Shown piece after piece: positions 31,732 to 46,800 of a stretch of DNA of 47,714 nucleotides. How positions within the stretch are numbered: the first letter of the stretch is position 1; every line of letters begins with the position of its first letter. The position numbers and the translations under genes were made by a program. Source of the stretch: a virus (lineage: Duplodnaviria; Heunggongvirae; Uroviricota; Caudoviricetes); IMG/VR virus record IMGVR_UViG_3300028805_000039, positions 191,852-239,565 of that record. One strand, 5' to 3'. The notes under the pieces were generated by a model. That model was not told where the DNA came from and searched no databases. It worked only from the letters and a program-made list of their open reading frames with translations.

Positions 31732-32265
31732 ATGGCTAAAATGTTTCTTATGTGTGGAAATTGCGGTTCTGGAAAAACTTATTTTGCAAAAGAGTTTGCT
31801 GAAAAAAATGGTTATAAATATGTCTCTATTGATGAGCGTTATAAGGCTCATAATGGAAGTGAAAGTAATAGAGAGAATAAATTTAAGATTTGGCTTGAAT
31901 TTTATGAATTAATTCATTATTATGAACTTACTGATTGTGATGTTGTAGTAGATACTAATGCTCCTACATTTTTTGACCGCACTGAATTTCTTAATTGGTT
32001 TCCTACTTTTGAACATCATTTAATCTGGATTGATGCTCCTATTGACATTTGCCTTGAAAATAATAGAAATAGAGAAAGAGTTATTCCAGAAGATGTAATG
32101 AAAAAATTATTTCTTAATTTTGAAGAACCCACTATGTTTACTTATACAATGTCTTGTCGGGCTCGCAGTCAGTGGAAAAGTGTTTCTATGATTAAAAATA
32201 ATAACAATCATTTTGGAAATAGAATTACTTTATTTGGAAGTTTTCCGAAAGGAGTTAAAATTTGA
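31732..32265 (+). CDS. polynucleotide 5'-kinase (T4 Pnk kinase-domain-like P-loop kinase)
   Basis: GNCGSGKTYFAKEF (cf. T4 Pnk GCPGSGKST), VVVDTN, lid ..NNRNRERVIPEDVMKKL.. Confidence 0.55.
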   Translation: MAKMFLMCGNCGSGKTYFAKEFAEKNGYKYVSIDERYKAHNGSESNRENKFKIWLEFYELIHYYELTDCDVVVDTNAPTFFDRTEFLNWFPTFEHHLIWIDAPIDICLENNRNRERVIPEDVMKKLFLNFEEPTMFTYTMSCRARSQWKSVSMIKNNNNHFGNRITLFGSFPKGVKI

Positions 32266-32471
32266 AAAATAATAATTATTTAGTTTATCTTAGTAAATTT
32301 TTTCTTTATGCAATTTTAAGTGTGTTAAGTACCGGAGTAATTATGGGAATTGTTTATTTTTTAATTTTTTGGTTATTTAATACGAAGGTATTAGCAATTT
32401 TTCTTTCTATAATTGTAGGAATTATTTATAGTATTGGTTTAATCTCAATTCGAGTTAGCGATGAGGAGTGA
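32262..32471 (+). CDS. small membrane protein
   Basis: two predicted TM helices. Confidence 0.4.
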   Translation: MKNNNYLVYLSKFFLYAILSVLSTGVIMGIVYFLIFWLFNTKVLAIFLSIIVGIIYSIGLISIRVSDEE

Positions 32472-32479
32472 GTTAAGTA

Positions 32480-33049
32480 ATGGCACTCGAAGGTCTCTAT
32501 AAATGCTTTTCTCATTGGGGCAAAGATGGCGGTACGTGGGTTATTTCTGATACTCATTTTGGGGAAGATGACTTAAAATGTGCCTATCCTAATCGTCCTG
32601 ATGATGAAACGCTTCTTAAAATAATTAACCAAAAAGTTGGTAAAGCAGGAACGTTGATCCATATTGGTGATGTTGGCGATATTGAATTTGCCAAGAGACT
32701 TAAAGGTTATAAGATTCTTATTTGCGGCAACCACGACAAAGGACCTGAATACTATGAAGGCATCTTTGATGAAGTATATGCCGGTCCACTTCTTATCTCT
32801 CCTAAACTTATGCTTTGTCATGAACCTATTAAATATCCTTATGCTTATGTAATTCACGGACACGACCATTCTGGTTCTCATTTTGAATACGGACATATGA
32901 ATGTTTGTTGTGATGTAATTGGTTATTCTCCTATTAATTTTAATCAATTTCTTAAATCCGGCAAACTTAAAGAATGTGAAAATATTGAACGTGAAACGAT
33001 TGATAAAGCAACAGAACGTGCACATAAAAGAGGAGGTAAACGTAAATAA
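32480..33049 (+). CDS. calcineurin-like metallophosphoesterase (candidate RNA 2',3'-phosphatase)
   Basis: VISDTHFGED, GDVGD, GNHD, GHDH motifs. Confidence 0.6.
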   Translation: MALEGLYKCFSHWGKDGGTWVISDTHFGEDDLKCAYPNRPDDETLLKIINQKVGKAGTLIHIGDVGDIEFAKRLKGYKILICGNHDKGPEYYEGIFDEVYAGPLLISPKLMLCHEPIKYPYAYVIHGHDHSGSHFEYGHMNVCCDVIGYSPINFNQFLKSGKLKECENIERETIDKATERAHKRGGKRK

Positions 33050-33672
33050 TGTCTACTATAATTCTTTCTATTGGAGTAGGAATTAGTGGTTTTTTAATCA
33101 CTTATTTAGTTAAACTTATTTACCCATATCTCAATATTAAAAATGAAAATAATATTCATATTTATTATAAAAATGCTTATAATAATTGGTATGGTGAAGG
33201 CAAAAATCTTCCTACTTTTACATTTGATAATTTTCTTCAATTTTATAATTTAAATCCAAAAGAATGGCAAATAATAGACATAGATGGAAAAGTGGTTTTG
33301 CCGGCCCGTAAAATAGGACAAAAAGCATATTATGGTTGTGCATATGATTATCAACCTATCTTTTTTACAAATATGTTTGAATGTAAAAAATATCGAGATT
33401 GGGCTGCTGAAAGAGTAAATGAAATAAAAAAAGAAAAAGATGGTGAAAATAAAAATAAAGCCACTAAAACTATTCTTAATGCAGTCCAAGAAGATATTAA
33501 CGAAATCCGCAAAGAAAATATAGATATTATTAATCAAACTGAAAATGATTTAGCTACAAATTTAACTGTAACAGAAACACAAAAATTCGTAGGTAATGAT
33601 GGGAAAGTTGCCCAACAAGAAGTATATCGTGGAATCGCAAGTGATGGGCATATTGTCCGGGTAATTCGTTAA
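33049..33672 (+). CDS. membrane-anchored protein, paralog family with 33935..34648
   Basis: N-terminal TM; shared motif TF(D)..L.FYN.NP..W. Confidence 0.4.
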   Translation: MSTIILSIGVGISGFLITYLVKLIYPYLNIKNENNIHIYYKNAYNNWYGEGKNLPTFTFDNFLQFYNLNPKEWQIIDIDGKVVLPARKIGQKAYYGCAYDYQPIFFTNMFECKKYRDWAAERVNEIKKEKDGENKNKATKTILNAVQEDINEIRKENIDIINQTENDLATNLTVTETQKFVGNDGKVAQQEVYRGIASDGHIVRVIR

Positions 33673-33696
33673 TAAAATGGAAGTTTAATAGATTTT

Positions 33697-33933
33697 TTGA
33701 AAGTAGAAAAAAATAAAATGATAAATAAGAAAATAAAAAATATAATTATATGGCTTGTTAATTTTATATTATTGTTTATTTCTATCATTATTGGCATGGC
33801 AATTATTTGTTCTGCTGTTTATTTTCCATTAAAATGGTTAAATTGGAATGGGACATGTTCGATTACAATATGTATAGGTGTATTATATATAATAATTATG
33901 ATAATTAAATTAATAGCGGAGGCAATGGAATAA
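33697..33933 (+). CDS. small membrane protein
   Basis: track ORF, hydrophobic. Confidence 0.4.
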   Translation: MKVEKNKMINKKIKNIIIWLVNFILLFISIIIGMAIICSAVYFPLKWLNWNGTCSITICIGVLYIIIMIIKLIAEAME

Positions 33934-33934
33934 T

Positions 33935-34648
33935 ATGGTTTGGATTTTATTAGGTATTTTTATTGGTATTCCTACTTTAATTATTGGTGGAGCAGCAATA
34001 TCTGTAAAAATTGATGAAATAAAAGAAAAAGAAAATAAGAAAAAAAAGCAAGATAAAGAGAACGAAGATATTTATAATCGCATTTTACAAACTACTTATA
34101 CTGACAAAGTTGCTAACATCAAAGGAGCTGTAAAAGAGCTTCCTCAGATGACTTTTGATCGTTGGTTAACATTTTATAATACTAATCCTGATAATTGGGA
34201 TATGGAAAAATTTACGACACATCTTAATTTAGGATATACAGATTATAATTATCTTATCCCTACTTACTATAAAACTACTACTCATAAAGGAAAAGATAAA
34301 GTAATAGAAAATACCGTAGGTATTCCTATCTTTTGGACGGATTGGCATGAAGCTGTAAAATTTCATAACTGGTATATTAATGAATATAAAAGAGGTAACG
34401 CTGCCGGTTATGAAAGAAAGCGTGACGCTTCTATGGAACAGCTTTCTAAATATCTCCAGGAAGATATTGAGGAGCGTCGTGCTCAGATCTTAAGAGACTA
34501 TGAAAAAGTAGTTGATCAGACTCAACGAGTAAAAGTTGAGGGTAGTGAGATTACTCTAGATTTGAATACTCCTGCTCAGGATAAATCTGGAGAAGAAGAA
34601 ATCGCTGCCATAATGGATAAACTTTTGGCAACTAGTGGCGGACATTAA
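33935..34648 (+). CDS. membrane-anchored protein (paralog of 33049..33672)
   Basis: track ORF. Confidence 0.4.
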   Translation: MVWILLGIFIGIPTLIIGGAAISVKIDEIKEKENKKKKQDKENEDIYNRILQTTYTDKVANIKGAVKELPQMTFDRWLTFYNTNPDNWDMEKFTTHLNLGYTDYNYLIPTYYKTTTHKGKDKVIENTVGIPIFWTDWHEAVKFHNWYINEYKRGNAAGYERKRDASMEQLSKYLQEDIEERRAQILRDYEKVVDQTQRVKVEGSEITLDLNTPAQDKSGEEEIAAIMDKLLATSGGH

Positions 34649-34726: not shown

Positions 34727-34755
34727 TTGAAAATTTTAAAAAAATATTATATAAT
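34727..34755 (+). promoter_or_regulatory. sigma70-like promoter copy 13
   Basis: TTGAAA 34727-34732, TATAAT 34750-34755. Confidence 0.7.
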
Positions 34756-34809: not shown

Positions 34810-35427
34810 ATGTTTAAATTGAAACCTTCTTTTCTTCCTAAACTGCATATTGAAATTGAACGTTGGAAATATCTTGAATCTATGGACGTTTATATTTCTT
34901 CGCATGGTAGATTTAAAGATAAGAATGGTGAATTTCTTTCTGTTGGGGCAAGAAATAATTATCTTGTTTTTCGTGGAGAATCTGTTCATCGGCTCGTTCT
35001 TTCAACTTTTAAACCTGTTCCTGGTTGGGCTGGTTTGACTGTTGATCATCTTAATCATAATACTCGTGATAATAGAGTTAGTAATCTTGAATGGGTAACT
35101 CTTGCTGAAAATACCAGGCGAGCTCGTAAAGATGAGAATGATAATACAAAAACTATGCTCCAGAAGACAGAAGAAAAAATTAAAGCGGCAGAAGAAATTA
35201 AAACAGCCGAAGCACAGGCCACTACTGCTAATGATGGTATTTATGTTGTTCTTAATGGGGTAAAGCTTCCTATTGACTCGGCTTGTCAGCTTATGAAAAG
35301 TGATAAGAGTTTAAGTGCTGATAAAATTAATACTCTTATTAATAATATTAAAGAAAATGCCAAGCGCGACTATGCTTATGGTAATTGGAAAATTAGGGGT
35401 ATGGAAGCTGGAGTCCCTAATAATTAA
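34810..35427 (+). mobile_element. free-standing HNH homing endonuclease (NUMOD4 + HNH_3 type)
   Basis: ..VDHLNHNTRDNRVSNLEWVTLAEN..; SSHGRFKDKNGEF. Confidence 0.6.
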
Positions 35428-35444: not shown

Positions 35445-35972
35445 ATGAGTAAAATTCTTATTATTATTGATGCGCAGAATGATTTTATTACAGGGGATCT
35501 TGGCTCTGAAGAAGCTGAAAAAGCACGAAATAATATTTGTACTTTTATTAATGAATATGCTGAATCATATGATGAAATTTATTTAACTAGAGATACGCAT
35601 AATGAAGATTATCTTTCTACAAATGAAGGACAACATCTCCCAGTAATTCACTGTATTGAAAATAGTGATGGTTGGCAAATTGATCCTAAAATTCTTTTTT
35701 ACCTTAAAGGATATAAGTATAGCTATATCAATAAAAATACTTTTGGCTATTTAGATTGGAGTAAAGGTGTTCTTGATCAAGCAGATGAAATGACAATTGA
35801 TATTATGGGTTTTTGTACTGATATTTGTGTTATTACTAATGCATTAATCCTTAAAACTGAATTTCCAGAAGCAGATATAACAGTATGGCATAGAGGATGC
35901 GCTGGGACCAGTATTAAAAATCACGAAGCAGCTCTTGATATTATGGAAAGTTGTCAGATTAGGGTGATATAA
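35445..35972 (+). CDS. isochorismatase-family hydrolase (nicotinamidase PncA-like)
   Basis: IIIDAQNDF.., catalytic-Cys context MGFCTDICV. Confidence 0.55.
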   Translation: MSKILIIIDAQNDFITGDLGSEEAEKARNNICTFINEYAESYDEIYLTRDTHNEDYLSTNEGQHLPVIHCIENSDGWQIDPKILFYLKGYKYSYINKNTFGYLDWSKGVLDQADEMTIDIMGFCTDICVITNALILKTEFPEADITVWHRGCAGTSIKNHEAALDIMESCQIRVI

Positions 35973-36638: not shown

Positions 36639-37907
36639 ATGCTAAATAAAGATGGAGTTCGTGAACTTGCTTATGTTGTCCTTGTTGATGGGATTGAACC
36701 TATTCCTGGATATGATAGAGTAGAACATGCTCTTATTGGTGGTTGGCGAGTAATTGTGCAGAAGGACCAGTTTAAAGTTGGTGACCCAGCTATTTATTTT
36801 GAAATTGATAGTAAGGTGCCAAAGGATAGAGAATGTTTTTCCTTCCTTGAAAAGCGTAATTATAAGGTAAAGACCTTAAAGATGTGTAAAACTATTTCAC
36901 AGGGGCTTCTTATGCACGCAAGTGATTTCGGTTGGAAAGCTTATCGGGGTATGGATCCACCTTTTGATGAACCTGCTTGTATTATTGACGATAAAAATCA
37001 TTGTTATTATGTCGATGATGAATCTCGTTTCTTGACTTCTATTCTTGGCGTAACCTATGCCGATGATGAAGATAATGCTCGTAAGGCTCCTTCTGTTGAT
37101 AAGTATAAAAAGATGGCCCAGCGTCATCCTAATATCTTTAAGAAGTCTTGGGCACGCTGGATGATGAAGCGTGAGTGGGGTCGTAAGCTCATGTTTATGT
37201 TCTTCGGTAAGAAGAAAGATAAGAAAAATGGGTGGCCTTCTTGGGTTTCAAAGACCGATGAGGAGCGTGTACAGAATATGCCTTGGATTCTTAATGATAC
37301 TGGTAGTTGGGTTATTACTGAAAAAATTGATGGTAGTTCTACTACCTTTACTATGAAACGTGGTAAGCGTGGTAAAAATGAGTTTTATGTCTGTTCTCGT
37401 AATGTATGTTTTGATAGTGTAGATAAACCTTGCTATTATGACACTAATATTTACTGGGAAATGGCACAAAAGTATGATATGTATAATGTTCTTTCAAAAT
37501 TTCTTGAAGAGCATCCCGATATTGAATGGGTAACTATTCAAGGCGAGACCTTCGGTAATGGTATCCAAAAGAGAGATTACTCTATGACAGAGCATGATTT
37601 CCGAGCCTTCAATCTTATTACTCCTAATAAAGGTCGTTGGGGCACTATGGAAATGTATAATACATTATTCACAGCAAAATATCGTATTCCTTGTGTGCCA
37701 GTCATTAACAAAGATTTTCACTTTGATTCTCTTGATATGTTGAAGGACGATGACGATAGTAATAGAGTAGATACTCTTCTTAACTTAGCTACTGGTAATT
37801 CTCAAATTGATGGACTTCCTCGTGAAGGATTTGTTCTCCGTTCTGCGGATGGCACTAAATCTTTTAAAGCAGTAAGTAATAGTTTCCTTCTTAAATATCA
37901 TAGTTAA
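36639..37907 (+). CDS. ATP-dependent RNA ligase (Rnl-type nucleotidyltransferase)
   Basis: motif I EKIDGSS (KxDG), motif IV EGFVLR, motif V KSFKAV. Confidence 0.55.
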   Translation: MLNKDGVRELAYVVLVDGIEPIPGYDRVEHALIGGWRVIVQKDQFKVGDPAIYFEIDSKVPKDRECFSFLEKRNYKVKTLKMCKTISQGLLMHASDFGWKAYRGMDPPFDEPACIIDDKNHCYYVDDESRFLTSILGVTYADDEDNARKAPSVDKYKKMAQRHPNIFKKSWARWMMKREWGRKLMFMFFGKKKDKKNGWPSWVSKTDEERVQNMPWILNDTGSWVITEKIDGSSTTFTMKRGKRGKNEFYVCSRNVCFDSVDKPCYYDTNIYWEMAQKYDMYNVLSKFLEEHPDIEWVTIQGETFGNGIQKRDYSMTEHDFRAFNLITPNKGRWGTMEMYNTLFTAKYRIPCVPVINKDFHFDSLDMLKDDDDSNRVDTLLNLATGNSQIDGLPREGFVLRSADGTKSFKAVSNSFLLKYHS

Positions 37908-38902: not shown

Positions 38903-39210
38903 TGTTAAATCGCACTTAGTATAGAGCTTATTTACGAAAAAATAAAAAAAATAAAAATCTTTCTATTTGCCCTAAGTGTAATCATAAATCACTTTTCTAT
39001 TCAACAGCAAGAGGTGAAAATGATACGGTTATTAAATGCGATATTTGCAAAGATATAGTTTTTGAAGGCCCTGATGTTACTCGTATGGTGCCGCCTGGAA
39101 TTTATCTTCCATTGCCTTTGGATATTTTTGAAATTGTTCTTAAAACCCCTCCAAAAGAAGAAGATAAAGTTCAAGAAGCAGAATATGTAGAAGTAAAAGA
39201 AAATGATTGA
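38902..39210 (+). CDS. zinc-ribbon protein, 1 in-frame TAG
   Basis: CPKC...CDIC; ATG overlaps previous TAA (TAATG). Confidence 0.45.
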
Positions 39211-39526
39211 TTGTAATTTTAATGTATCTAATTTTACTAATGAAGAATTAATTAATAGATTAAAATATCTTGCTGATTTCTATTGGGAATATTGGGATTT
39301 AGAAAAATTAGAATTACTTGAAGCTGATACAGCTGCTGTTTTATATGAAGCAGCTAAACGATTAGAAAAATTTTATTCTTTAAATACCAATGAAATGTGT
39401 GATTGCTATCGTCCAAATATGTATAGAGATAATATAGCAAGATGTTTTGGTACAAAAGAAATTGATCCATGTAATTGTAATGGAAATAAAAATAAATGTG
39501 ATTTTTATAATAAAGGAGAAAAATAA
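39203..39526 (+). CDS. hypothetical Cys-rich protein
   Basis: track ORF. Confidence 0.45.
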   Translation: MIDCNFNVSNFTNEELINRLKYLADFYWEYWDLEKLELLEADTAAVLYEAAKRLEKFYSLNTNEMCDCYRPNMYRDNIARCFGTKEIDPCNCNGNKNKCDFYNKGEK

Positions 39527-39529: not shown

Positions 39530-40420
39530 ATGAAAATTGGTCGCATGATTGGAATTAGTGTAGTTGTATTGCTTTTAGTTTTTGTTTTGCTTAATTCATT
39601 TACAATTGTTCAATCTGGTTTTACAGGAGTCCCTGTAACTTTTGGTAAAGTAGCAAATTATACAGTTGGCGAAGGTCCGCATTTCCATTCTCCATTTACT
39701 GATATTATCAAAATGGATAATCATGTCCAGAAACATACTATTACAATGAGTGCTTTTTCTAAGGACATTCAGGAAACTGCCGTTACTTATACTATTAACT
39801 ATAAAATTAGCGAAAATGATGCTATGACAATTTATCGTACAATTGGCAAAAATTACTTTGAAACAGTTATTTCCCCTAATATTAGTGAAGCGGTAAAAAC
39901 TGCCACAGCACATTATACAGCTGAAAGTTTGGTTAATAATCGTGATAAGTTGAGCCAGGAGATTGAAGTAATTTTAACTGATTTGCTCGAAAAGTATAAA
40001 ATTATTATCGTTGGTACTTCCATTGAAGATCTGGACTTCACTGATGCTTTCACAAATGCAGTTGAAGCAAAGCAGGTCGCAGCACAGAATAAATTGAAAG
40101 CACAGACCGAGCAGGAACAGCAAACAATGGAAGAGGAAGCAAAGGCAAAACGTGCTGTTATTCAAGCTAACGCAGAAGCAGAGCAGGCTAAAATCGCAGC
40201 AAATGCAGACCTTGAAGTAGTAAAAATTCAAGCTGAAGCAAGTCTTTATGCTGGCCAGCGAGAAGCTGAAATGAATCAGCGTATCGCAGAAGCTTTAACT
40301 CCACAGTTGATTAGTTATTATTGGATTAAACAATGGGATGGTGAGTTGCCTGATACTATGTTGGGTGATGGCACTGATATAATGCTCGCATTAGATACTG
40401 CTACTGGTGTTACAAAGTAA
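39530..40420 (+). CDS. SPFH/band-7 (prohibitin/stomatin-like) membrane protein
   Basis: N-terminal TM + ..IVQSGFTGVPVTFGKV..EGPHFHSPF.. + coiled-coil. Confidence 0.6.
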   Translation: MKIGRMIGISVVVLLLVFVLLNSFTIVQSGFTGVPVTFGKVANYTVGEGPHFHSPFTDIIKMDNHVQKHTITMSAFSKDIQETAVTYTINYKISENDAMTIYRTIGKNYFETVISPNISEAVKTATAHYTAESLVNNRDKLSQEIEVILTDLLEKYKIIIVGTSIEDLDFTDAFTNAVEAKQVAAQNKLKAQTEQEQQTMEEEAKAKRAVIQANAEAEQAKIAANADLEVVKIQAEASLYAGQREAEMNQRIAEALTPQLISYYWIKQWDGELPDTMLGDGTDIMLALDTATGVTK

Positions 40421-40431
40421 ATCTATATTTA

Positions 40432-40468
40432 TAAGAGAGGGGCGACCCTCTCTTATTTGATTTTTTAA
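40432..40468 (+). terminator. rho-independent terminator
   Basis: AGAGAGGGG-CGA-CCCTCTCT + T-rich. Confidence 0.7.
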
Positions 40469-40485
40469 AAAAAATATTATATAAT
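40457..40485 (+). promoter_or_regulatory. sigma70-like promoter copy 14
   Basis: TTGATT 40457-40462, TATAAT 40480-40485. Confidence 0.6.
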
Positions 40486-40647
40486 ATTTATAAGGGAAAG
40501 GGGACAAATATTATATAAATATTTTTAATACACCAGAAATTTAGTTATACATTTCAACATGGGCTTTTGGTACTATATGTGGATTAATATTTGCTTGGAC
40601 TATGGAAATAGAGAATCAAAAATATTTAAAAAATAAGGAAGAAAATA

Positions 40648-40914
40648 ATGATTGATATAATCCGATATCCTGATAAACCAATTTTAAAATATACTTGCTT
40701 ATGTTCTTTATGCGGCACTCAATGGATGTGTGATAAAGCCGACATAAAATGGAAAGATGATTTTTTTATTGGAACATGTCCTCTTTGTGGATTTCATAAT
40801 TATTGTTATAATTATGAAAAAGAAAAAAGATGGACTGATTTTCAATATTATAATGGCTCTTATGAAATTCCTATATTAAATAGAGAGAGGACTGAAAATA
40901 GTGACTATTGCTGA
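40648..40914 (+). CDS. Cys-rich hypothetical protein
   Basis: track ORF. Confidence 0.4.
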   Translation: MIDIIRYPDKPILKYTCLCSLCGTQWMCDKADIKWKDDFFIGTCPLCGFHNYCYNYEKEKRWTDFQYYNGSYEIPILNRERTENSDYC

Positions 40915-41365
40915 ATGTCAAGTTGAGACACAAAAGCATATTGAAAAAGTAAGAAAATATATTCGTTTTCTTACTGATAAATTAACTACTCGTGGAGTAA
41001 ATCATGATGCAGCAAAATTAAAATCACCAGAAGTGGAATTATTTGCTGAACATACTGAAAAATTAAAAAATCTTGAATATAATAGTGAAGAGTATAAAGC
41101 AAGTTTAGCAGCGTTAAAACCAGCATTAGATCATCATTATGCTGCATATCGTCATCATCCAGAGCATTTCTCCAATGGAATTAATGATATGAATCTTGTT
41201 GATTTATGCGAAATGATTGCTGATTGGAAGGCTGCTAGTGAAAGACAGAATAGTGGAAATTTAATTAAAAGTATTGAAATAAATGCCGATAGATTTCATA
41301 TTGATGCTCAATTAAAACAAATCTTATTAAATACAGCAAAATTATATGATGAAGAGGAAAAATAA
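40901..41365 (+). CDS. His-rich hypothetical protein (possible metal-dependent hydrolase)
   Basis: NHDAAKL, HHYAAYRHHPEHF. Confidence 0.3.
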   Translation: MTIAECQVETQKHIEKVRKYIRFLTDKLTTRGVNHDAAKLKSPEVELFAEHTEKLKNLEYNSEEYKASLAALKPALDHHYAAYRHHPEHFSNGINDMNLVDLCEMIADWKAASERQNSGNLIKSIEINADRFHIDAQLKQILLNTAKLYDEEEK

Positions 41366-41483
41366 ATGAATATTATTAGTATGGTTTTTATTGGACTTAT
41401 GATAATTTTAATTATTGGAGCAAGTATTAATAATAGTGATTAAAAAAATATTGTAACTTAAATAAGTTACAATATTTTTTTAA

Positions 41484-41512
41484 TTGAAATTTATAAAAAA
41501 ATATTATATAAT
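41484..41512 (+). promoter_or_regulatory. sigma70-like promoter copy 15
   Basis: TTGAAA 41484-41489, TATAAT 41507-41512. Confidence 0.7.
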
Positions 41513-41544
41513 ATTTATAGAAAATAAAAAGGATTGGTTTAATT

Positions 41545-41754
41545 ATGTTTAATTTTATTAAAAAATTATATCTATTTATTGCTAAAATATTTGCAGGAAT
41601 GTTAGGTGGTATAGGAGTAATACTTGGCCTTTATTATCCTTTATTTTTATTTATGGGGCCTGATTCTGTTTTCCCATATTTAATGGGAGGTATCGGCGGA
41701 GTAGTTTATGCTATTGGATTTTTAGACAAACTTTTAAATGGAGATTTTAAATGA
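41545..41754 (+). CDS. small membrane protein
   Basis: track ORF. Confidence 0.4.
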   Translation: MFNFIKKLYLFIAKIFAGMLGGIGVILGLYYPLFLFMGPDSVFPYLMGGIGGVVYAIGFLDKLLNGDFK

Positions 41755-41927
41755 ATAGTAATATTTGGTTTATTATTTGTGATATTTGGCTTATTATTTT
41801 CAATACTTATTTTGTAATTAATAAGACAGGCCATTGGCAATTTAATCTTGCTGCTGCTATCTGTTTAACTATTTCTGCTAGTATTTTAGCAGTCCAAGAA
41901 ATAAAAAGAAGAAAGGATAAAAGATAA
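41751..41927 (+). CDS. small membrane protein (58 aa)
   Basis: ATG 41751, TAA 41925-41927, overlaps next start (TAATG). Confidence 0.35.
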   Translation: MNSNIWFIICDIWLIIFNTYFVINKTGHWQFNLAAAICLTISASILAVQEIKRRKDKR

Positions 41928-42718
41928 TGCCAGTTCATGATGAATTAGGAAAAAGAATGAAAAGATATGAAGCAATTTCTCAAATTAGTTTAATGCGGCG
42001 AACTCCTGTTGCTATTCGTATTGATGGAAAAGCTTTCCATACTTTTACTAAACATTTACGGAAACCTTATGATAAACTTTTCCATGAAGCAATGGAAAAT
42101 ACTATGAAATATCTTTGTGAGAATATCCAAAACTGTGTATTTGGATATACACAATCTGATGAAATTACTCTTATTCTTACCGATTATGAAACTTTAAATA
42201 CAGACGCTTGGTTTGGTTATGAAGTTCAAAAACTTTGTTCTATTAGTGCAAGTATGGCAACTATGAAATTTAATCAAGAATTTCAAAGACTAGCTGAAGA
42301 TTATATTTGGGAATGGAGCCATGATATGGTTCCACAATCTGTTGGACTATGGGAAAAAGAAAAAACATATCATACTCATTTAAAAGATTGCATCGCACGA
42401 GGGGCAATGTTTGATGCTCGTTGTTTTAACATTCCAAAAGAAGAAGTAGTAAATCTTGTTCTTTGGCGGCAATTTGATGCGGAACGCAATTCTATTAACT
42501 CTATGGGGCAAAGTTATTTTTCTCATAAGGAACTTCAAAATAAGAATTGCGGCGAAATTATTAAAATGCTCGAAGATAAAGGTGTCTTTTGGAATAATCA
42601 TTCTAATGCTTTTAAGCATGGGGTTGCTTGTATAAATAATGGCGATGGTTGGGAATTAGATTATAATATGCCAATGCTTAAAGGAGAAGACAGATATTAT
42701 TTAGAGAGGTTTGTATGA
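41927..42718 (+). CDS. Thg1-like 3'-5' RNA polymerase (tRNA-His guanylyltransferase family)
   Basis: ..VAIRIDGKAFHTFTKHLRKPYD...VFGYTQSDEITLIL.. matches Thg1 ..VRLDGRNFHRF...AYGQSDEYSFVF.. Confidence 0.7.
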   Translation: MPVHDELGKRMKRYEAISQISLMRRTPVAIRIDGKAFHTFTKHLRKPYDKLFHEAMENTMKYLCENIQNCVFGYTQSDEITLILTDYETLNTDAWFGYEVQKLCSISASMATMKFNQEFQRLAEDYIWEWSHDMVPQSVGLWEKEKTYHTHLKDCIARGAMFDARCFNIPKEEVVNLVLWRQFDAERNSINSMGQSYFSHKELQNKNCGEIIKMLEDKGVFWNNHSNAFKHGVACINNGDGWELDYNMPMLKGEDRYYLERFV

Positions 42719-43188
42719 GTGAAAAGCATAAGGTAATATATGATAGAGAAAGTGATCAGTATTATCAGCGTAGACGAGTGGGAAATCAAACTATTGAATT
42801 AGGAATGAATTGTACTGATTGGATTGAAGAGAATAAAGAATCTTGGTGGAATATCTTTCTAACAATCTATAATAAACGTAAAGATGCCTTTACAAATATG
42901 GATAAAAAGGTTATAACAGGTCAAAATCCATTTGCTACTTTTGCGACTGCACGCGATATGTTCTATGATGTAGAGGCTGAAGTTTTAAAGAGAGAATTAG
43001 AGTACGGTCATAGCAATAAAGTAGTAATTTTCTGCACTTGGGTAGACAATAGAAGACGTGATGCTTATTATCGTGTACTTAATAAACATGGATATGACTG
43101 GGGAAAGTGTAGTGGTGGAAAATGTATCATGAAAACTTTTACTAGAGATAATTTAGCTAAAGAAATAATTGAAGAGGACTCAAAATAA
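42715..43188 (+). CDS. hypothetical protein
   Basis: track ORF. Confidence 0.4.
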   Translation: MSEKHKVIYDRESDQYYQRRRVGNQTIELGMNCTDWIEENKESWWNIFLTIYNKRKDAFTNMDKKVITGQNPFATFATARDMFYDVEAEVLKRELEYGHSNKVVIFCTWVDNRRRDAYYRVLNKHGYDWGKCSGGKCIMKTFTRDNLAKEIIEEDSK

Positions 43189-44057
43189 TGAAATATCAAG
43201 AAATTTCTAATTGTTTTACTTATAAATATGCTTATTGTCAAACTGAAAAAGATAATTTAATTCTTCATAAAGTAGAAGAGCATTTAGCAGAAGTAATTGA
43301 TAATGGTTATTTTGATCTAAAAAGTATTTTTTTTATCGCACTTGAGGGTAGCCAAAATTATGAATTAGATTTGCCGAATAGTGATATTGATACTAAATTA
43401 ATTGTTCTTCCTAATTTTGAAGATTTTGTACTAAATAATAAACCAGTTAGTACAACACATATCCGAAAAAATGGAGAGCATATTAGTTTTACCGATGTTA
43501 GAAATTATTTTTCCTCTTTGAGAAAACAGAATATTAATTTTGTTGAGACACTATTTTCTCCTTGGATTATTGTAAATAAAATATATGAAGAAGAATTTAA
43601 AGCTCTTTACAAAAATCGAGAATTAATAGCACGATATAATCCTGTCAAAGCTGTTAAAACTATTGGCGGAATTGCGACTGATAGATATAAAGCAATTTAT
43701 AATCTCAATTCTAAAAGAGTTGATGTCATTAAACAGTATGGCTATGATGGAAAGGCAATTAGTCATCTTTGCCGTCTTACTCAATTTTTATATGATTATA
43801 CAAGTGAGTGCAAATATAGAGTATGTATGGTTCCTCTCTATAAACAATTAATTCTTGATTTAAAACAAAATAAAATTAACCCAGCTAGAGCAAAAAATAT
43901 TGCAGAAGCAGAATATGAGACAATTCAAAGAATTGTTGATAATTATACAAAACAACATGAAGAAACTATAAATGAAGAAGCTGAAAATCTTCTTACTTAT
44001 TTACAATTTAGTCTCGTGCAAGCATCTTTTTTGGCTGACTGTGCGGCACAGGGTTGA
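43188..44057 (+). CDS. Pol-beta-superfamily nucleotidyltransferase
   Basis: ..LEGSQNYELDLPNSDIDTKLIV.. (GS..SD.D). Confidence 0.5.
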   Translation: MKYQEISNCFTYKYAYCQTEKDNLILHKVEEHLAEVIDNGYFDLKSIFFIALEGSQNYELDLPNSDIDTKLIVLPNFEDFVLNNKPVSTTHIRKNGEHISFTDVRNYFSSLRKQNINFVETLFSPWIIVNKIYEEEFKALYKNRELIARYNPVKAVKTIGGIATDRYKAIYNLNSKRVDVIKQYGYDGKAISHLCRLTQFLYDYTSECKYRVCMVPLYKQLILDLKQNKINPARAKNIAEAEYETIQRIVDNYTKQHEETINEEAENLLTYLQFSLVQASFLADCAAQG

Positions 44058-44076
44058 TACATCCGCATCTCAAATT

Positions 44077-44116
44077 AAAAAGTCGTTTGGAATTTTTCAA
44101 ACGACTTTTTTTCTTT
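44077..44116 (+). terminator. rho-independent terminator
   Basis: AAAAGTCGTTTG / CAAACGACTTTT + T-run. Confidence 0.75.
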
Positions 44117-44119
44117 TAG

Positions 44120-44148
44120 TTGAAAATATTAAAAAAATATTATATAAT
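44120..44148 (+). promoter_or_regulatory. sigma70-like promoter copy 16
   Basis: TTGAAA 44120-44125, TATAAT 44143-44148. Confidence 0.7.
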
Positions 44149-44181
44149 ATATATGTAAAAAATAAAAAAGGAATGAAATAA

Positions 44182-44541
44182 ATGATATTTAATAAAAATC
44201 ATCCAGACTTTGAATTTAATGATGTATATTTTCTTTATCTTATTGATAATCATTACGATTTTGATGAAGAAGATATTAAAATGTTTATTGAATGTTGCGA
44301 AATTGATCGTATTCCACGAGAACTTCGCCGTTGGACAAGGCAGATTGATAGTATTTGCGAAGTTAAAGATAGATATTTTATCGTAAGTTGGGACGAGGGG
44401 CTTACTGAATATCAAGAAAATATATATGATGATAGTACTATTACAGAAGTAACTCCTATTGAAACAACAAAACGAATTATTGTCACTCAATGGCGAGATA
44501 AAGAAAATAATATAGTTTGCGAGACGATAAATGATGAATAA
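44182..44541 (+). CDS. hypothetical protein
   Basis: track ORF. Confidence 0.45.
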   Translation: MIFNKNHPDFEFNDVYFLYLIDNHYDFDEEDIKMFIECCEIDRIPRELRRWTRQIDSICEVKDRYFIVSWDEGLTEYQENIYDDSTITEVTPIETTKRIIVTQWRDKENNIVCETINDE

Positions 44542-44734
44542 TTTAGATAGACTTATAGCGGCAATTCAATGTCCTGAATGGAAATAGAGCGTATGTAAGG
44601 CTTGCCCTTATGATTATTAGATTGAATTAACTGATGAAGAAGATAGACCTCGACATAGTTATTATGATTGTAATAGAGTTAAAATGTTAGATGATGCTCT
44701 ATTCTATTTAGAAGAATTAAAAAGGAGAATCTAA
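44531..44734 (+). CDS. small Cys-rich protein (paralog of 44735..44950), 2 in-frame TAG
   Basis: MMNNLDRLIAAIQCPEWK*SVCKACPYDY*IELTDEED...; TAA 44732-44734. Confidence 0.4.
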
Positions 44735-44950
44735 ATGAATAATTTAGATAATGTAATTACAGCATATGAATGTTGGAATGGTCCATATGAAAAAGATAAA
44801 TGTGACCATTGCCCTTATGGTTATTCATATCTTGATGATAGTGGAGATGGCCGTCCTTTTTATACTTGCAAAGAAGAAAGATTAACAGATGATATGTATT
44901 TTTGGTTAAAAATATATCAACATCTTGTTCAGCAAGGAGACACTAGATGA
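44735..44950 (+). CDS. small Cys-rich protein
   Basis: track ORF. Confidence 0.45.
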   Translation: MNNLDNVITAYECWNGPYEKDKCDHCPYGYSYLDDSGDGRPFYTCKEERLTDDMYFWLKIYQHLVQQGDTR

Positions 44951-45339
44951 AATATATAATTGCTGGTGGCCGTGATTTTAATAATCGTAATATTTTATAT
45001 GCTGTGATGAACACTGTTAAAAAATATGGCCCATCCGTAAATAAACCCATTACAGAAATTATAACAGGTGATGCCAGAGGGGCAGACACATTAGGAGCCG
45101 AATGGGCTAATATAAATGGAATTAAACTTACTCACTTTCCAGCAAAATGGGAAATATATGGGAAATCTGCCGGTTTTATTCGTAATGCTGATATGGGGAC
45201 ATATGCTGATGCTGCCATCATTTTTTGGGATGGGGAAAGTAAAGGCACTAAGCATATGATCCAAACAATGAAAAAACTTGGAAAACCATATAGTGTATTT
45301 AATTATAAAGGAGAATTAATTGAATCTAATGGAATTTGA
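44947..45339 (+). CDS. SLOG-family (DUF2493/YspA-like) Rossmann-fold protein
   Basis: ..IAGGRDF..GDARGADTLGAEWA.. Confidence 0.45.
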   Translation: MKYIIAGGRDFNNRNILYAVMNTVKKYGPSVNKPITEIITGDARGADTLGAEWANINGIKLTHFPAKWEIYGKSAGFIRNADMGTYADAAIIFWDGESKGTKHMIQTMKKLGKPYSVFNYKGELIESNGI

Positions 45340-45349
45340 AGTTTTTATT

Positions 45350-45481
45350 ATGCCTTGCGGTTTTGCTTTTTTTGCTGGTTTTTGTTTTGGAAGTTGTTTT
45401 CGTAAAGATGATTATAGTTTTACTATGTTTTACCCAGGGATGTTTGCTTTATTTGGAATGATTATGGAAATAATAAAATGA
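45350..45481 (+). CDS. small membrane peptide (43 aa)
   Basis: MPCGFAFFAGFCFGSCF.. Confidence 0.3.
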   Translation: MPCGFAFFAGFCFGSCFRKDDYSFTMFYPGMFALFGMIMEIIK

Positions 45482-45645
45482 ATAAATATGTAGAAGAAAT
45501 TTTAAAATATGAAGCAGCAAATAAAAATAAACCATTTGATTTAGCATTAATTCCAGAAGATGTTCGTGAATATGTCATTTGGATGTTAAGAAAAGAGTAC
45601 ATAAAACAAATATATAAAAGGGATGATACTAATGATAACGGCTAA
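45478..45645 (+). CDS. small hypothetical protein (55 aa)
   Basis: ATGA overlap with previous. Confidence 0.3.
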   Translation: MNKYVEEILKYEAANKNKPFDLALIPEDVREYVIWMLRKEYIKQIYKRDDTNDNG

Positions 45646-45922
45646 AGAAGCAAAAAAAATAACAGAGACTCGTCAAATAAAAATTATTAAAGAAAAATTA
45701 AAATCTAATGAAAAACTTTTAAAAGCCATTGAAGATAGAATTAAAATTGCTGCTAGTATTGATGGTTGGAATTCAATATATTTTTATTTCGCAGAAAAAT
45801 ATCATTCAACTATAGGCGATATGGTATTTATTGAACACTATTTAAAAGAATATTGTGGATTTAAAACTAAATTATTTAAAGATGAAAGAAACGCTTGGTA
45901 TCTTGAAATATCTTGGAGGTGA
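45623..45922 (+). CDS. hypothetical protein
   Basis: track ORF. Confidence 0.45.
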   Translation: MILMITAKEAKKITETRQIKIIKEKLKSNEKLLKAIEDRIKIAASIDGWNSIYFYFAEKYHSTIGDMVFIEHYLKEYCGFKTKLFKDERNAWYLEISWR

Positions 45923-46800
45923 TTAATAAAATGGGCATGATTCGTAATCAAAATTTTAAAAATTGGTTGGTGCATGGAGATTGCCATGGCCAGTTTAATT
46001 GGATGACCAATGGTAGTTTAAATGATTATATTCCTCATGAAACTGCGATTATTATTCTAGGTGATGCTGGATTTAACTTCTACCTTAATAAAACCGAAGC
46101 TAAACATAATAAGGAAATTAACGACCGTGGTTATACTTTTTATGTAGTTCGTGGGAATCATGAGGCACGTCCACAAGATTTACCAGAAATGAGTAAAGTA
46201 TATGATTGTAATGTTCATGGATTTATTTATTATAATCCTAATCTTCCCAATATTCGTTATTTCAAAGATTATGGAGATTATGTAATTGGACTTTATTATT
46301 GTTATGTAATTGGCGGAGCGTACTCTGTTGATAAATGGTATCGTCTTGGTAGATTAAATATGACAGAAGAAACTAATATTCCTACTAAATCTGGTTGGTT
46401 TGCAGATGAACAGTTAACTAAAGACGAAATGGCAGAAGCAGAACGAGAAATTGATATAATATTGACAAAAGGGCTTCCAAAGAAATTTGATTTTATCCTT
46501 TCTCATACCTGTCCTTATTCTTTACAGCCGACAGATATGTTCTTGTCTGGAATAGACCAGTCAAAAGTAGATAATAGTATGGAACTTTGGATGGATAAAA
46601 TTTATCAAAAAAATCGTGGTAAAACTATTTGGCTTTGGGGACATTTTCACCGTGATAGTATTGAAGCACCACGATGTGAAATGTTTTATAATGATTTAAA
46701 TAGCTTTAAAGAGATTAAAGAACGTTGGAATAGATATGATGAAACTGGTGAATTAGATTGGTATCTTGTAAAAAGTCCATTTTTTGAGGAGCGTGCGTAA
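45913..46800 (+). CDS. calcineurin-like metallophosphoesterase (second copy; lambda-phosphatase-like)
   Basis: HGDCHGQF, ILGDAGFN, VRGNHEA, GHFH motifs. Confidence 0.6.
   Translation: MEVINKMGMIRNQNFKNWLVHGDCHGQFNWMTNGSLNDYIPHETAIIILGDAGFNFYLNKTEAKHNKEINDRGYTFYVVRGNHEARPQDLPEMSKVYDCNVHGFIYYNPNLPNIRYFKDYGDYVIGLYYCYVIGGAYSVDKWYRLGRLNMTEETNIPTKSGWFADEQLTKDEMAEAEREIDIILTKGLPKKFDFILSHTCPYSLQPTDMFLSGIDQSKVDNSMELWMDKIYQKNRGKTIWLWGHFHRDSIEAPRCEMFYNDLNSFKEIKERWNRYDETGELDWYLVKSPFFEERA

What the first reader, a model, noticed from the sequence alone, without database searches (positions are those of the whole stretch)
31732..46800. Dispersed RNA-repair / tRNA-end maintenance gene set
The early regions encode a T4-Pnk-like P-loop kinase (31732-32265), two calcineurin-type metallophosphoesterases (32480-33049 and 45913-46800), and an Rnl-type RNA ligase (KxDG, EGFVLR; 36639-37907). 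They also encode a Thg1-like 3'-5' polymerase (41927-42718) and a Pol-beta nucleotidyltransferase (43188-44057). Together these can heal 2',3'-P/5'-OH breaks, rebuild tRNA 5' ends (Thg1-like) and possibly 3' CCA ends. That is a fuller kit than T4 Pnk+Rnl1, and would make sense in a phage carrying ~14 tRNAs that host anticodon nucleases could target.
Basis: partly seen in the sequence, partly recalled or inferred. Interest (0 to 1): 0.7.

Follow-up and report, generated by a model that had tools for sequence, protein, structure and literature searches.

The report
Phage tRNA/RNA end-repair gene kit
An uncultivated jumbo phage carries a full set of enzymes predicted to clean up, rebuild and re-join broken RNA ends, most likely tRNAs. 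Kits of this kind have already been catalogued in large phages, so this is a well-supported but ordinary example with one uncharacterised accessory gene.

Summary
Corrections:
- The ligase is an Rnl5 (DraRnl/NgrRnl) nick-sealing RNA ligase, not Rnl1.
- The Thg1 homologue is a bacterial-type Thg1-like protein (TLP) with its catalytic Asp/Asp-Glu intact.
- The kinase belongs to the Pnk clade but is kinase-only.
- The Pol-beta enzyme is a divergent RlaP (RNA-ligase-associated) nucleotidyltransferase, not a CCA-adding enzyme.

- a Band-7/SPFH protein;
- a Ro60-like TROVE/vWA protein in the tRNA block;
- a YAcAr SLOG protein;
- a conserved GNAT-fold ORF wedged between TLP and RlaP.

The genes lie in five standard-code transcription units that share one sigma-70-like promoter motif with the tRNA genes. 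Related metagenomic phages hold the same genes in compact, shuffled cassettes, for example Thg1–ORF157–RlaP–YAcAr–Metallophos–Rnl5. That argues for functional linkage.

Such kits are described in Burroughs & Aravind 2016 and Iyer et al. 2021, so this is a new member of a known kind. All activities are inferred. In passing, 14.3–31.5 kb is TAG-recoded and the phage encodes a CUA suppressor tRNA.

The parts
1361..12030 (+). tRNA gene block: 11 ARAGORN tRNAs, including tRNA-His(GUG) at 1563-1637 and a CUA amber-suppressor tRNA at 9917-9986. These are the presumed clients of the kit.
   Evidence: All real tRNAs encode CCA. tRNA-His has an encoded G-1 (position 1562) opposite C73.
12645..14144 (+). 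Ro60-like TROVE/vWA protein (DUF2828 + DUF7788), a candidate RNA-binding scaffold.
   Evidence: Pfam 1.8e-28 and 7e-41. PHROG 850 'RNA-binding protein' 8e-125. Lies next to Thg1 in L013, L015, L045 and L075.
31671..31706 (+). Sigma-70-like promoter (TTGAAA-N17-TATAAT) for transcription unit 1 (kinase to phosphoesterase 1).
   Evidence: The same motif sits at 34727, 40457, 41484 and 44120, and seven times in the tRNA block.
31732..32265 (+). Polynucleotide 5'-kinase-clade P-loop kinase, kinase domain only.
   Evidence: AAA_33 3.7e-11. PHROG 505 'polynucleotide kinase' 4.6e-9. A family profile hits PSTK, the CthPnkp kinase domain, Pnkp1 and T4 Pnk (1.3e-12).
32480..33049 (+). Small metallophosphoesterase 1, a candidate 2',3'-cyclic-phosphate/3'-phosphate end-healing enzyme.
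   Evidence: Metallophos_2 1.3e-5. PHROG 547 2.7e-23. DxH/GD/GNHD/GHxH motifs are present. A homologue sits directly upstream of Thg1 in at least 9 loci.
36639..37907 (+). Rnl5-type (DraRnl/NgrRnl) ATP-dependent RNA ligase: N-terminal OB domain, an insert of about 100 aa, then the nucleotidyltransferase domain.
   Evidence: K229, E303, E396 and K410 align with NgrRnl motifs I, III, IV and V.
39203..39526 (+). Small conserved ORF that travels with the ligase and Band-7 genes.
   Evidence: tblastn hits lie between the ligase and Band-7 genes in L003 and L050, and after the ligase in L004. No family match.
39530..40420 (+). Membrane-anchored SPFH/Band-7 protein, a candidate scaffold.
   Evidence: Band_7 1e-26. 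Recurs near Thg1 or the ligase in 9-10 loci. Terminator at 40431-40456.
40901..41365 (+). DUF5662 protein rich in His/Asp; role unknown.
   Evidence: PF18907 1e-33. No PDB or PHROG match.
41484..41519 (+). Promoter of the Thg1-ORF157-RlaP operon.
41927..42718 (+). Bacterial-type Thg1-like protein (TLP), a 3'-5' RNA polymerase.
   Evidence: PF04446 2.9e-32. BtTLP 4KGK 7.7e-48 versus human THG1 5e-4. PHROG 4717 1e-80. D33, D78 and E79 are present.
42715..43188 (+). ORF157, a conserved GNAT-fold protein with no Pfam family. Its start and stop overlap the flanking genes.
43188..44057 (+). Divergent RlaP-family Pol-beta nucleotidyltransferase, a predicted 3'-end nucleotide adder.
   Evidence: PF10127 matches 8 of 9 relatives and many database homologues. 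G54-S55...D66-x-D68 is invariant. AF2 pLDDT 95.9. Terminator at 44077-44110.
44947..45339 (+). YAcAr SLOG-domain protein, the conserved upstream partner of phosphoesterase 2.
   Evidence: PF10686 1.2e-13. A YAcAr-then-Metallophos pair occurs in L087, L089, L091 and L094.
45913..46800 (+). Metallophosphoesterase 2 with PPP/lambda-phosphatase-like GDxHG/GDxG/GNHE motifs. The likely start is 45931.
   Evidence: Metallophos 1.5e-10. PHROG 1649. Adjacent to the RlaP gene in at least 10 loci. Conserved metal ligands.

Best explanation
The region encodes an early-expressed, multi-enzyme RNA end-healing, end-restoring and sealing kit that most likely acts on tRNAs.

Proposed steps, all inferred from the characterised activities of each family:
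1. [quoted passage not shown]
2. The Pnk-clade kinase phosphorylates the 5'-OH.
3. One or both metallophosphoesterases remove the 2',3'-cyclic or 3'-phosphate to give a 3'-OH.
4. The RlaP-like transferase adds back one or two nucleotides at the 3'-OH side.
5. The Thg1-like protein fills missing 5' nucleotides in the 3'-5' direction, templated by the opposite strand.
6. The Rnl5 ligase seals the resulting 3'-OH/5'-phosphate nick in a duplex context.

The Band-7, TROVE/vWA and GNAT-fold ORF157 proteins are candidate scaffolds or specificity factors.

Shown here: family membership, intact catalytic motifs, operon structure and conserved gene linkage.
Inferred: every activity, the substrate (tRNA) and the biological trigger (host nucleases).
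For: - Family assignments and catalytic residues.
- Thg1, ORF157 and RlaP are translationally coupled. They sit in one unit between a promoter at 41484-41519 and a terminator at 44077-44110.
- The same promoter motif drives the tRNA block and all five repair units.
- Of 80 viral loci with a Thg1 relative, 34 have a kinase, phosphoesterase, ligase or RlaP within 10 kb. Partner-gene density is 13 per 100 kb within 2.5 kb, against 3.3-7.2 further out.
- Compact cassettes with different gene orders occur in relatives: L004 (phosphoesterase 1-Thg1-RlaP-ligase), L014 (ligase-Thg1-kinase) and L050 (Thg1-RlaP-phosphoesterase 2-ligase-o107-Band-7). L087, L089 and L091 carry Thg1-ORF157-RlaP-x-YAcAr-Metallophos-(HNH)-Rnl5.
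- Literature describes the same logic. Thg1-PNK-ligase neighbourhoods are in PMC2904730. Jumbo-phage kits of ligases, PNK, phosphoesterases, RlaP, CCA enzyme, Thg1, TROVE and tRNAs are in PMC7824862, section 3.4.9. RlaP adds 1-2 NMP to damaged RNA 3'-OH ends and restores aminoacylation of repaired tRNA (PMC12776372).
Against: - No activity or substrate was tested.
- Characterised Rnl5 enzymes seal duplex nicks, not anticodon-loop breaks (my knowledge of DraRnl/NgrRnl), so classic anticodon-nuclease repair may not be the target.
- The kinase and both phosphoesterases belong to broad superfamilies. Phosphoesterase 2 has no significant solved relative.
- The window's own RlaP and phosphoesterase 1 copies score below the Pfam gathering thresholds.
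- Only 9 of 80 Thg1 loci have tRNA genes within 10 kb.
- Many of the loci are related to each other, so neighbourhood counts are not independent.
Confidence: 0.7

Rival explanations
1. The kit serves routine maturation or quality control of the phage's own tRNAs, including the suppressor tRNA that TAG-recoded genes need, rather than repair of host-inflicted damage. Examples would be restoring G-1 on tRNA-His, or healing tRNA ends left by self-cleaving ribozymes.
For: - The phage carries 11-12 tRNAs, including tRNA-His and a CUA suppressor, and 102 in-frame TAGs at 14.3-31.5 kb.
- The repair genes share promoters with the tRNA genes.
- DRB0094-family RNA ligase is reported as 140-fold enriched in gut phages whose tRNAs are flanked by HDV-like theta ribozymes (PMC10879173). 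HDV-like ribozymes leave a 2',3'-cyclic phosphate on the upstream product (my knowledge of the ribozyme class), which would be the tRNA 3' end.
- In L004 the cassette is flanked by 18 tRNA genes.
Against: - No HDV-like ribozyme hit in the window at E<=1.
- All real tRNAs here encode CCA, unlike theta-ribozyme-associated tRNAs, of which 4.5% do.
- tRNA-His has an encoded G-1:C73 pair of the bacterial type, which normally needs no Thg1.
- Only 2 of 80 Thg1 loci have a tRNA-His nearby.
Confidence: 0.2
2. Only part of the set is RNA repair. Phosphoesterase 2 with its YAcAr SLOG partner, and perhaps the isochorismatase-family protein, belongs to an NAD+/ADP-ribose or cyclic-nucleotide counter-defence module that merely lies next to the repair genes.
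For: - A YAcAr-then-Metallophos pair is conserved.
- A NADAR gene follows the ligase in L091.
- The isochorismatase-family gene recurs in 15 loci.
- PMC7824862 places YAcAr SLOG domains among predicted NAD+-utilising phage enzymes.
Against: - Phosphoesterase 2 is directly adjacent to RlaP in at least 10 loci and sits between RlaP and the ligase in L050.
- RlaP needs a 3'-OH, which a phosphoesterase would supply.
- Macro/NADAR-type enzymes are themselves linked to RNA repair in the same literature (PMC2904730, PMC7824862).
Confidence: 0.25
3. The genes are functionally unrelated early genes, or they act on DNA (end processing, or nick sealing at RNA-DNA junctions during replication).
For: - In this window the genes are spread over 15 kb in five transcription units with many unrelated small ORFs and an HNH endonuclease between them.
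- Phosphoesterase 1 weakly resembles PdeM, a DNA-ligase-associated phosphoesterase.
- PNK-clade kinases can act on DNA.
Against: - Linkage is conserved in several gene orders in relatives.
- Thg1/TLP enzymes are known only as RNA enzymes.
- Rnl5 requires an RNA 3'-OH strand (my knowledge of DraRnl/NgrRnl).
- RlaP acts on RNA (PMC12776372).
Confidence: 0.07

Closest known systems
Phage and bacterial modular RNA-repair systems (Burroughs & Aravind 2016; jumbo-phage survey by Iyer et al. 2021, PMC7824862)
   Same: The same 'syntax': ATP-dependent RNA ligase, polynucleotide kinase, phosphoesterase, RlaP, optionally Thg1, TROVE and Band-7 scaffolds, and many phage tRNAs. The window comes from a phage of at least 239.5 kb.
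   Different: This particular combination and the conserved Thg1-ORF157(GNAT-fold)-RlaP operon were not found described in the papers I could read.
T4 Pnk + Rnl1 tRNA repair pathway
   Same: The healing-and-sealing logic for 5'-OH/2',3'-cyclic-phosphate breaks, and a phage that encodes its own tRNAs.
   Different: The kinase has no fused HAD phosphatase. Metallophosphoesterases are the likely 3' healers, as in CthPnkp. The ligase is Rnl5 (duplex nick sealing) rather than Rnl1. Two end-rebuilding polymerases (TLP and RlaP) are added.
Deinococcus radiodurans DraRnl / Naegleria gruberi NgrRnl (Rnl5)
   Same: N-terminal OB domain plus a C-terminal nucleotidyltransferase domain, with motifs I, III, IV and V conserved.
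   Different: About 100 extra residues between the domains. The score is below the TIGR02306 equivalog cut-off (101.5 against 151.15). Identity to cultured-phage homologues is at most 28%.
Bacillus thuringiensis Thg1-like protein (BtTLP, PDB 4KGK)
   Same: Strong full-length similarity (7.7e-48) and conserved catalytic residues. The family is known for template-dependent repair of tRNA 5' ends (PMC3061083).
   Different: An insertion of about 39 residues (121-159) and a phage origin. 161 phage records already carry annotated homologues.
RlaP nucleotidyltransferases (PF10127; PfRlaP/PaRlaP, T4 NrdC.11)
   Same: Pol-beta GS...DxD core with a helical C-terminal domain, and gene linkage to RNA ligases.
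   Different: Very divergent: 20.5 bits against a cut-off of 23. It is linked to Rnl5 and Thg1 rather than RtcB. The nearest solved folds are kanamycin nucleotidyltransferase and HalB, at TM about 0.42 only.

Membership tests
Rnl5 RNA ligase (DraRnl/NgrRnl, TIGR02306) | N-terminal OB-fold domain followed by a C-terminal nucleotidyltransferase domain | tested here: met
   PF21189 (residues 11-92) and PF09414 (223-412). Both domains align to NgrRnl 5COT.
Rnl5 RNA ligase (DraRnl/NgrRnl, TIGR02306) | Motif I lysine (KxDG) and motifs III, IV and V | tested here: met
   K229-IDG, QGE303, RE396GFVLR and FK410AVSN align with the NgrRnl motifs.
Rnl5 RNA ligase (DraRnl/NgrRnl, TIGR02306) | Score above the curated equivalog cut-off | tested here: not met
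   101.5 bits against a cut-off of 151.15. It is a divergent member with an inter-domain insert of about 100 aa.
Rnl5 RNA ligase (DraRnl/NgrRnl, TIGR02306) | ATP-dependent sealing of 3'-OH/5'-phosphate nicks with an RNA 3'-OH strand | not testable with these tools
   Needs biochemistry.
Thg1 / Thg1-like protein (PF04446) | Pfam score above the gathering threshold | tested here: met
   111.8 bits against 29.2.
Thg1 / Thg1-like protein (PF04446) | Catalytic metal-binding carboxylates (Asp in RxDG; Asp-Glu in SDE) | tested here: met
   D33 and D78-E79 align with BtTLP and Thg1 structures.
Thg1 / Thg1-like protein (PF04446) | Bacterial TLP subtype rather than eukaryotic tRNA-His-specific Thg1 | tested here: met
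   BtTLP 7.7e-48 against Candida/human Thg1 at 2.5e-5 to 5e-4.
Thg1 / Thg1-like protein (PF04446) | Template-dependent 3'-5' nucleotide addition to tRNA 5' ends | not testable with these tools
   Needs biochemistry.
T4 Pnk (bifunctional kinase-phosphatase) | P-loop 5'-kinase domain of the polynucleotide-kinase clade | tested here: met
   A family profile hits the CthPnkp kinase (9.6e-15), Pnkp1 (1.1e-14) and T4 Pnk (1.3e-12), but also PSTK (7e-18). The P-loop, D34 and R114 are invariant.
T4 Pnk (bifunctional kinase-phosphatase) | Fused C-terminal HAD (DxDxT) 3'-phosphatase domain | tested here: not met
   The protein is 177 aa with only the kinase domain. It is therefore not a T4 Pnk orthologue.
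RlaP (PF10127) | Pfam score above the gathering threshold | tested here: inconclusive
   The window copy scores 20.5 against 23. However, 8 of 9 aligned relatives match, with a best E of 2.2e-6, and many homologues at 50-73% identity carry precomputed PF10127.
RlaP (PF10127) | Pol-beta hG[GS]...DxD catalytic signature | tested here: met
   G54, S55, D66 and D68 are invariant in 43 sequences. The high-confidence model has a Pol-beta fold.
RlaP (PF10127) | Genomic association with RNA ligase genes | tested here: met
   L004, L024, L026, L033, L050, L087, L089 and L091.
Class II CCA-adding enzyme | PolyA_pol head domain and fold similarity to CCA enzymes | tested here: not met
   No PF01743 hit. 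Foldseek TM 0.18-0.23 to CCA enzymes.
Calcineurin-like metallophosphoesterases | DxH / GD / GNH[DE] / H / GHxH metal-binding motifs | tested here: met
   All are present in both proteins. In phosphoesterase 2 they are invariant across 12 homologues.
Calcineurin-like metallophosphoesterases | RNA 2',3'-cyclic phosphodiesterase / 3'-phosphatase activity, as in the CthPnkp phosphatase domain | not testable with these tools
   There is no significant sequence match to CthPnkp or lambda phosphatase. The role is inferred from gene context only.
Band-7 / b7a-tRNA RNA-repair module | SPFH/Band-7 protein linked to an RNA ligase | tested here: met
   Band_7 1e-26. Ligase-o107-Band-7 order in L003 and L050.
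Band-7 / b7a-tRNA RNA-repair module | Adjacent tRNA-like non-coding RNA | tested here: not met
   No tRNA or tRNA-like hit next to the gene. The flanking gaps fold as a terminator plus promoter.
Ro60 (TROVE)-Y RNA module | TROVE/vWA protein with a neighbouring Y RNA | tested here: inconclusive
   The protein matches DUF2828 and DUF7788. Rfam gives no Y RNA hit. Stem-bracketed tRNA-like elements at 7150-7275 and 11243-11362 are only candidates.
GNAT acyltransferases (for ORF157) | GNAT fold | tested here: met
GNAT acyltransferases (for ORF157) | Acetyl-CoA-binding motif A (Q/RxxGxG/A) | tested here: not met
   The equivalent loop is an invariant N-R-R-R with no glycines. No Pfam GNAT hit.

The most novel reading that the evidence does not exclude
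The conserved Thg1-like - GNAT-fold ORF157 - RlaP - YAcAr - metallophosphoesterase - Rnl5 cassette may be one coordinated 'gap-filling' RNA repair machine. It would rebuild both sides of a break in a base-paired tRNA region such as the acceptor stem: 5' side by the TLP, 3' side by RlaP, followed by duplex nick sealing. ORF157 would be a new specificity or scaffold subunit. In TAG-recoded phages the machine would protect the suppressor tRNA on which the recoded genes depend.
Probability: 0.2. Interest if true: 0.65.

Novelty: new member of a known kind. Interest (0 to 1): 0.35.

Why it matters
If the kit works as inferred, the phage can heal broken RNA ends and also replace nucleotides lost from either side of a break before sealing. 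That would counter host nucleases that excise bases. It would also matter for a phage whose recoded genes depend on its own suppressor tRNA. The practical value lies in three things: a set of divergent, compact enzymes (Rnl5, TLP, RlaP) for biochemistry, a conserved uncharacterised GNAT-fold partner to test, and a correct annotation of a TAG-recoded jumbo phage. It does not change what is known about phage RNA repair in general.

Tried and rejected
- Megablast of the 15-kb region against 50,697 phage records found nothing. There is no close cultured relative.
- Single-sequence or profile PDB searches gave no significant hit for the Pol-beta enzyme, phosphoesterase 2 and DUF5662.
- I looked for a Band-7-associated tRNA-like RNA. 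ARAGORN and Rfam found none near 39.5-41.9 kb. The structured intergenic stretches at 40415-40655 and 41360-41550 (z about -3.7) are a terminator hairpin followed by the shared promoter, not ncRNA candidates.
- I looked for Y RNA and HDV-like or theta ribozymes with Rfam over the whole window, and with lax filters on two sub-regions. There were no hits.
- I tested whether Thg1 genes sit next to tRNA arrays or tRNA-His in general. Only 9 of 80 loci have tRNAs within 10 kb and only 2 have tRNA-His, so that link was rejected as a general rule.
- I considered a CCA-adding role for the Pol-beta enzyme and rejected it.
- I considered a need for G-1 addition to tRNA-His. This is unlikely because G-1 is encoded opposite C73.
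- The key primary paper (Burroughs & Aravind 2016, PMC5062991) is not held. Its content is cited only through PMC7824862 and bioRxiv 10.1101/312249.

Full report
**Observation**

| ORF | Assignment | Key scores |
|---|---|---|
| 31732-32265 | P-loop kinase | AAA_33 3.7e-11; PHROG 'polynucleotide kinase' 4.6e-9 |
| 32480-33049 | Metallophosphoesterase 1 | Metallophos_2 1.3e-5; PHROG 547 2.7e-23 |
| 36639-37907 | RNA ligase | PF09414 8e-21 plus N-terminal PHA02142 OB domain 9e-21 |
| 41927-42718 | Thg1-like | PF04446 2.9e-32 |
| 43188-44057 | Pol-beta nucleotidyltransferase | PF10127 RlaP 4e-4; PHROG 388 2.2e-20 |
| 45913-46800 | Metallophosphoesterase 2 | Metallophos 1.5e-10 |

ARAGORN finds 11 tRNAs at 1361-12030. 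Rfam adds a composite 154-nt tRNA hit.

**What each part is**

- **Ligase.** It is an Rnl5 enzyme.
  - Both its OB domain and its nucleotidyltransferase domain align to Naegleria NgrRnl (5COT, 4e-26).
  - It also hits the DraRnl model TIGR02306, but below the equivalog cut-off.
  - K229 (KxDG), E303, E396 and K410 occupy motifs I, III, IV and V.
  - About 100 extra residues separate the two domains.
- **Thg1 homologue.** It is a bacterial-type Thg1-like protein.
  - It matches Bacillus thuringiensis TLP 4KGK at 7.7e-48, against 5e-4 for human THG1.
  - D33 and D78-E79 are in place, and there is an insertion of about 39 residues.
- **Kinase.** It is 177 aa and kinase-only.
  - A profile of it and four phage homologues hits seryl-tRNA(Sec) kinase, the Clostridium thermocellum Pnkp kinase domain, Pnkp1 and T4 Pnk (1.3e-12).
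  - It therefore belongs to the RNA/polynucleotide kinase clade but is not a T4 Pnk orthologue.
- **Pol-beta enzyme.** It is a divergent RlaP.
  - The window copy is sub-threshold. However, 8 of 9 relatives and many database homologues carry PF10127.
  - The GS...DxD signature is invariant.
  - A confident model (pLDDT 95.9) is a Pol-beta fold with a helical C-domain.
  - Its nearest solved relatives are kanamycin nucleotidyltransferase and HalB, at TM about 0.42 only. CCA-adding enzymes score TM about 0.2.
  - The CCA idea is therefore not supported. In addition, all real tRNAs here already encode CCA.
- **Phosphoesterases.** Both keep the full metal-binding motif set. They cannot be placed in a specific subfamily.

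- A Band-7/SPFH protein at 39530-40420, with a small conserved partner ORF at 39203-39526.
- A DUF5662 protein at 40901-41365.
- A YAcAr SLOG protein at 44947-45339.
- A Ro60-like TROVE/vWA protein at 12645-14144 in the tRNA block.
- ORF157 at 42715-43188.
  - It overlaps the stop of the TLP gene and the start of the RlaP gene.
  - It has 159 database homologues and no Pfam family.
  - The canonical acetyl-CoA motif is replaced by an invariant N-R-R-R.

**Organisation**

A strong sigma-70-like promoter (TTGAAA-N17-TATAAT inside a conserved AAAAAAATATTATATAATAT motif) occurs seven times in the tRNA block. It also occurs at 31671, 34727, 40457, 41484 and 44120. Terminators lie at 40431-40456 and 44077-44110.

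The repair genes therefore lie in five units that share their promoter type with the tRNA genes. Thg1-ORF157-RlaP form one operon.

**Linkage in relatives**

- An identical RlaP protein sits on contigs of up to 239,565 bp, so this is a jumbo phage. It has no close cultured relative.
- At least 599 IMG/VR stretches encode a Thg1 relative.
- In the best 80 loci, 34 carry a kinase, phosphoesterase, ligase or RlaP within 10 kb.
- Partner-gene density is 13 per 100 kb within 2.5 kb of Thg1, against 3.3-7.2 further out.
- Gene order differs between lineages while linkage persists:
  - L004: phosphoesterase 1-Thg1-RlaP-ligase
  - L014: ligase-Thg1-kinase
  - L050: Thg1-RlaP-phosphoesterase 2-ligase-o107-Band-7
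- In the seven contexts read from the window, L003 and the ORF157-homologue lookups the order is Thg1, ORF157, small ORFs, RlaP. In five of these it continues to YAcAr and Metallophos, and in three it runs on to (HNH and) Rnl5. In L045 the ORF157 homologue instead lies beside the TROVE gene, about 3 kb from Thg1.
- The 'dispersed' set in this window is thus a loosened version of a compact cassette.
- The loci are related to one another, so these counts are not independent events.

**Mechanism (inferred)**

1. The kinase makes a 5'-phosphate.
2. A phosphoesterase makes a 3'-OH.
3. RlaP adds one or two nucleotides at the 3' side. This activity is shown for Pseudomonas RlaPs in PMC12776372.
4. 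The TLP fills the 5' side against the template strand (family activity, PMC3061083).
5. Rnl5 seals the duplex nick.

Because Rnl5 enzymes prefer duplex nicks (my knowledge of DraRnl/NgrRnl), base-paired parts of tRNA are a more natural target than anticodon loops. None of this was tested.

**Rivals**

1. *Maturation or quality control of the phage's own tRNAs.*
   - For: the DRB0094 ligase family is reported as 140-fold enriched in gut phages with theta ribozymes next to tRNAs (PMC10879173).
   - Against: the window has no HDV-like hit, its tRNAs encode CCA, and tRNA-His has an encoded G-1:C73 pair.
2. *Phosphoesterase 2 with YAcAr belongs to NAD+/ADP-ribose or cyclic-nucleotide counter-defence.*
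   - For: YAcAr is placed among predicted NAD+-utilising enzymes (PMC7824862), and a NADAR gene is nearby in L091.
   - Against: phosphoesterase 2 lies next to RlaP in at least 10 loci.
3. *Unrelated genes, or genes acting on DNA.* The conserved linkage and the RNA specificity of the families argue against this.

**Comparison with what is known**

- Thg1-PNK-RNA ligase neighbourhoods, and phage Thg1, were described in 2010 (PMC2904730).
- Jumbo-phage kits of RNA ligases, PNK, phosphoesterases, RlaP, CCA enzyme, Thg1, TROVE and tRNAs were surveyed in 2021 (PMC7824862).
- Band-7 and Ro60 modules with tRNA-like RNAs were proposed as repair cofactors (Burroughs & Aravind 2016, as summarised in bioRxiv 10.1101/312249).
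- 161 phage records already carry annotated Thg1 homologues and 332 carry this ligase type.

This is therefore a new member of a known kind. The conserved GNAT-fold ORF157, and the fixed Thg1-ORF157-RlaP operon, are the only elements I could not find described.

**Side finding**

Positions 14.3-31.5 kb resolve into 18 packed ORFs only if TAG is read as sense, with 102 in-frame TAGs. The tRNA block and the repair region use the standard code, and the phage encodes a CUA suppressor tRNA. This is the known phage TAG-recoding phenomenon. It makes tRNA integrity plausibly more critical for this phage.

Noticed in passing
window 14300-31500 (both strands); suppressor tRNA at 9917-9986: This stretch has almost no long ORFs in the standard code. 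Read with TAG as sense, it becomes 18 tightly packed ORFs with 102 in-frame TAGs. They include a dUTPase-like protein, BspA-type leucine-rich-repeat proteins and a glycosyltransferase-like protein. A CUA-anticodon tRNA lies in the tRNA block. The tRNA block and the repair region are intact in the standard code. This is TAG stop-codon recoding confined to part of the genome, a known phenomenon.
   Followed up: partly
window 7276-7429: Rfam scores a 154-nt tRNA (48.6 bits) that ARAGORN does not call. The sequence looks like a tRNA with a second tRNA-like unit inserted in its anticodon region, and it ends in an encoded CCA.
   Followed up: partly
window 7150-7275 and 11243-11362: Two elements have the same layout: a terminal stem (GACACAT/ATGTGTC and AGACAGAT/ATCTGTCT), a shared ACAGCAAC motif, and an internal tRNA-like part. 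One of these is the ARAGORN 'tRNA-???' with a 4-nt anticodon and no CCA. They lie upstream of the Ro60-like TROVE gene and might be Y-RNA-like partners. Rfam gives no Y RNA hit, and the folding z-scores are only -2.0 and -2.4.
   Followed up: partly
window 1099, 3849, 6579, 7025, 9105, 10833, 12551, 31689, 34745, 40475, 41502, 44138: One conserved promoter motif (TTGAAA-N17-TATAAT within AAAAAAATATTATATAATAT[AT]TAT) is repeated twelve times on the + strand. Including reverse-strand readings of this partly palindromic motif, 28 matches were found against 3.4 expected by chance. It defines the standard-code transcription units.
   Followed up: yes
window 34810-35427; L089 10430-11017; L091 9946-10533: An HNH_3 endonuclease gene sits upstream of the Rnl5 ligase gene. 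It is separated from it by the isochorismatase-family gene and three small ORFs in the window, by one small ORF in L089, and is directly adjacent in L091. This suggests a mobile endonuclease associated with the ligase locus.
   Followed up: no
window 35445-35972: An isochorismatase-family protein (possibly a nicotinamidase) recurs within 10 kb of Thg1 in 15 of 80 related loci. Its link to RNA repair or NAD+ metabolism is unexplained.
   Followed up: no
window 5369-6007: The Eco57I-like methyltransferase ORF is the only one of 34 standard-code ORFs that ends in TAG. The frame stays open for at least 20 further codons after the TAG, so it may be read through by the suppressor tRNA.
   Followed up: no
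L073 2994-3896: In one relative the kinase homologue lies directly after the ligase gene and is fused to a C-terminal HD phosphohydrolase domain. That makes it an alternative end-healing partner to the metallophosphoesterases.
   Followed up: partly
window 40901-41365 versus L083 8002-8178: The DUF5662 ORF is full length here (154 aa, GTG start, whole Pfam model matched). On a near-identical contig it was called as only 58 aa. This is a start-codon or gene-calling difference that was not resolved.
   Followed up: no
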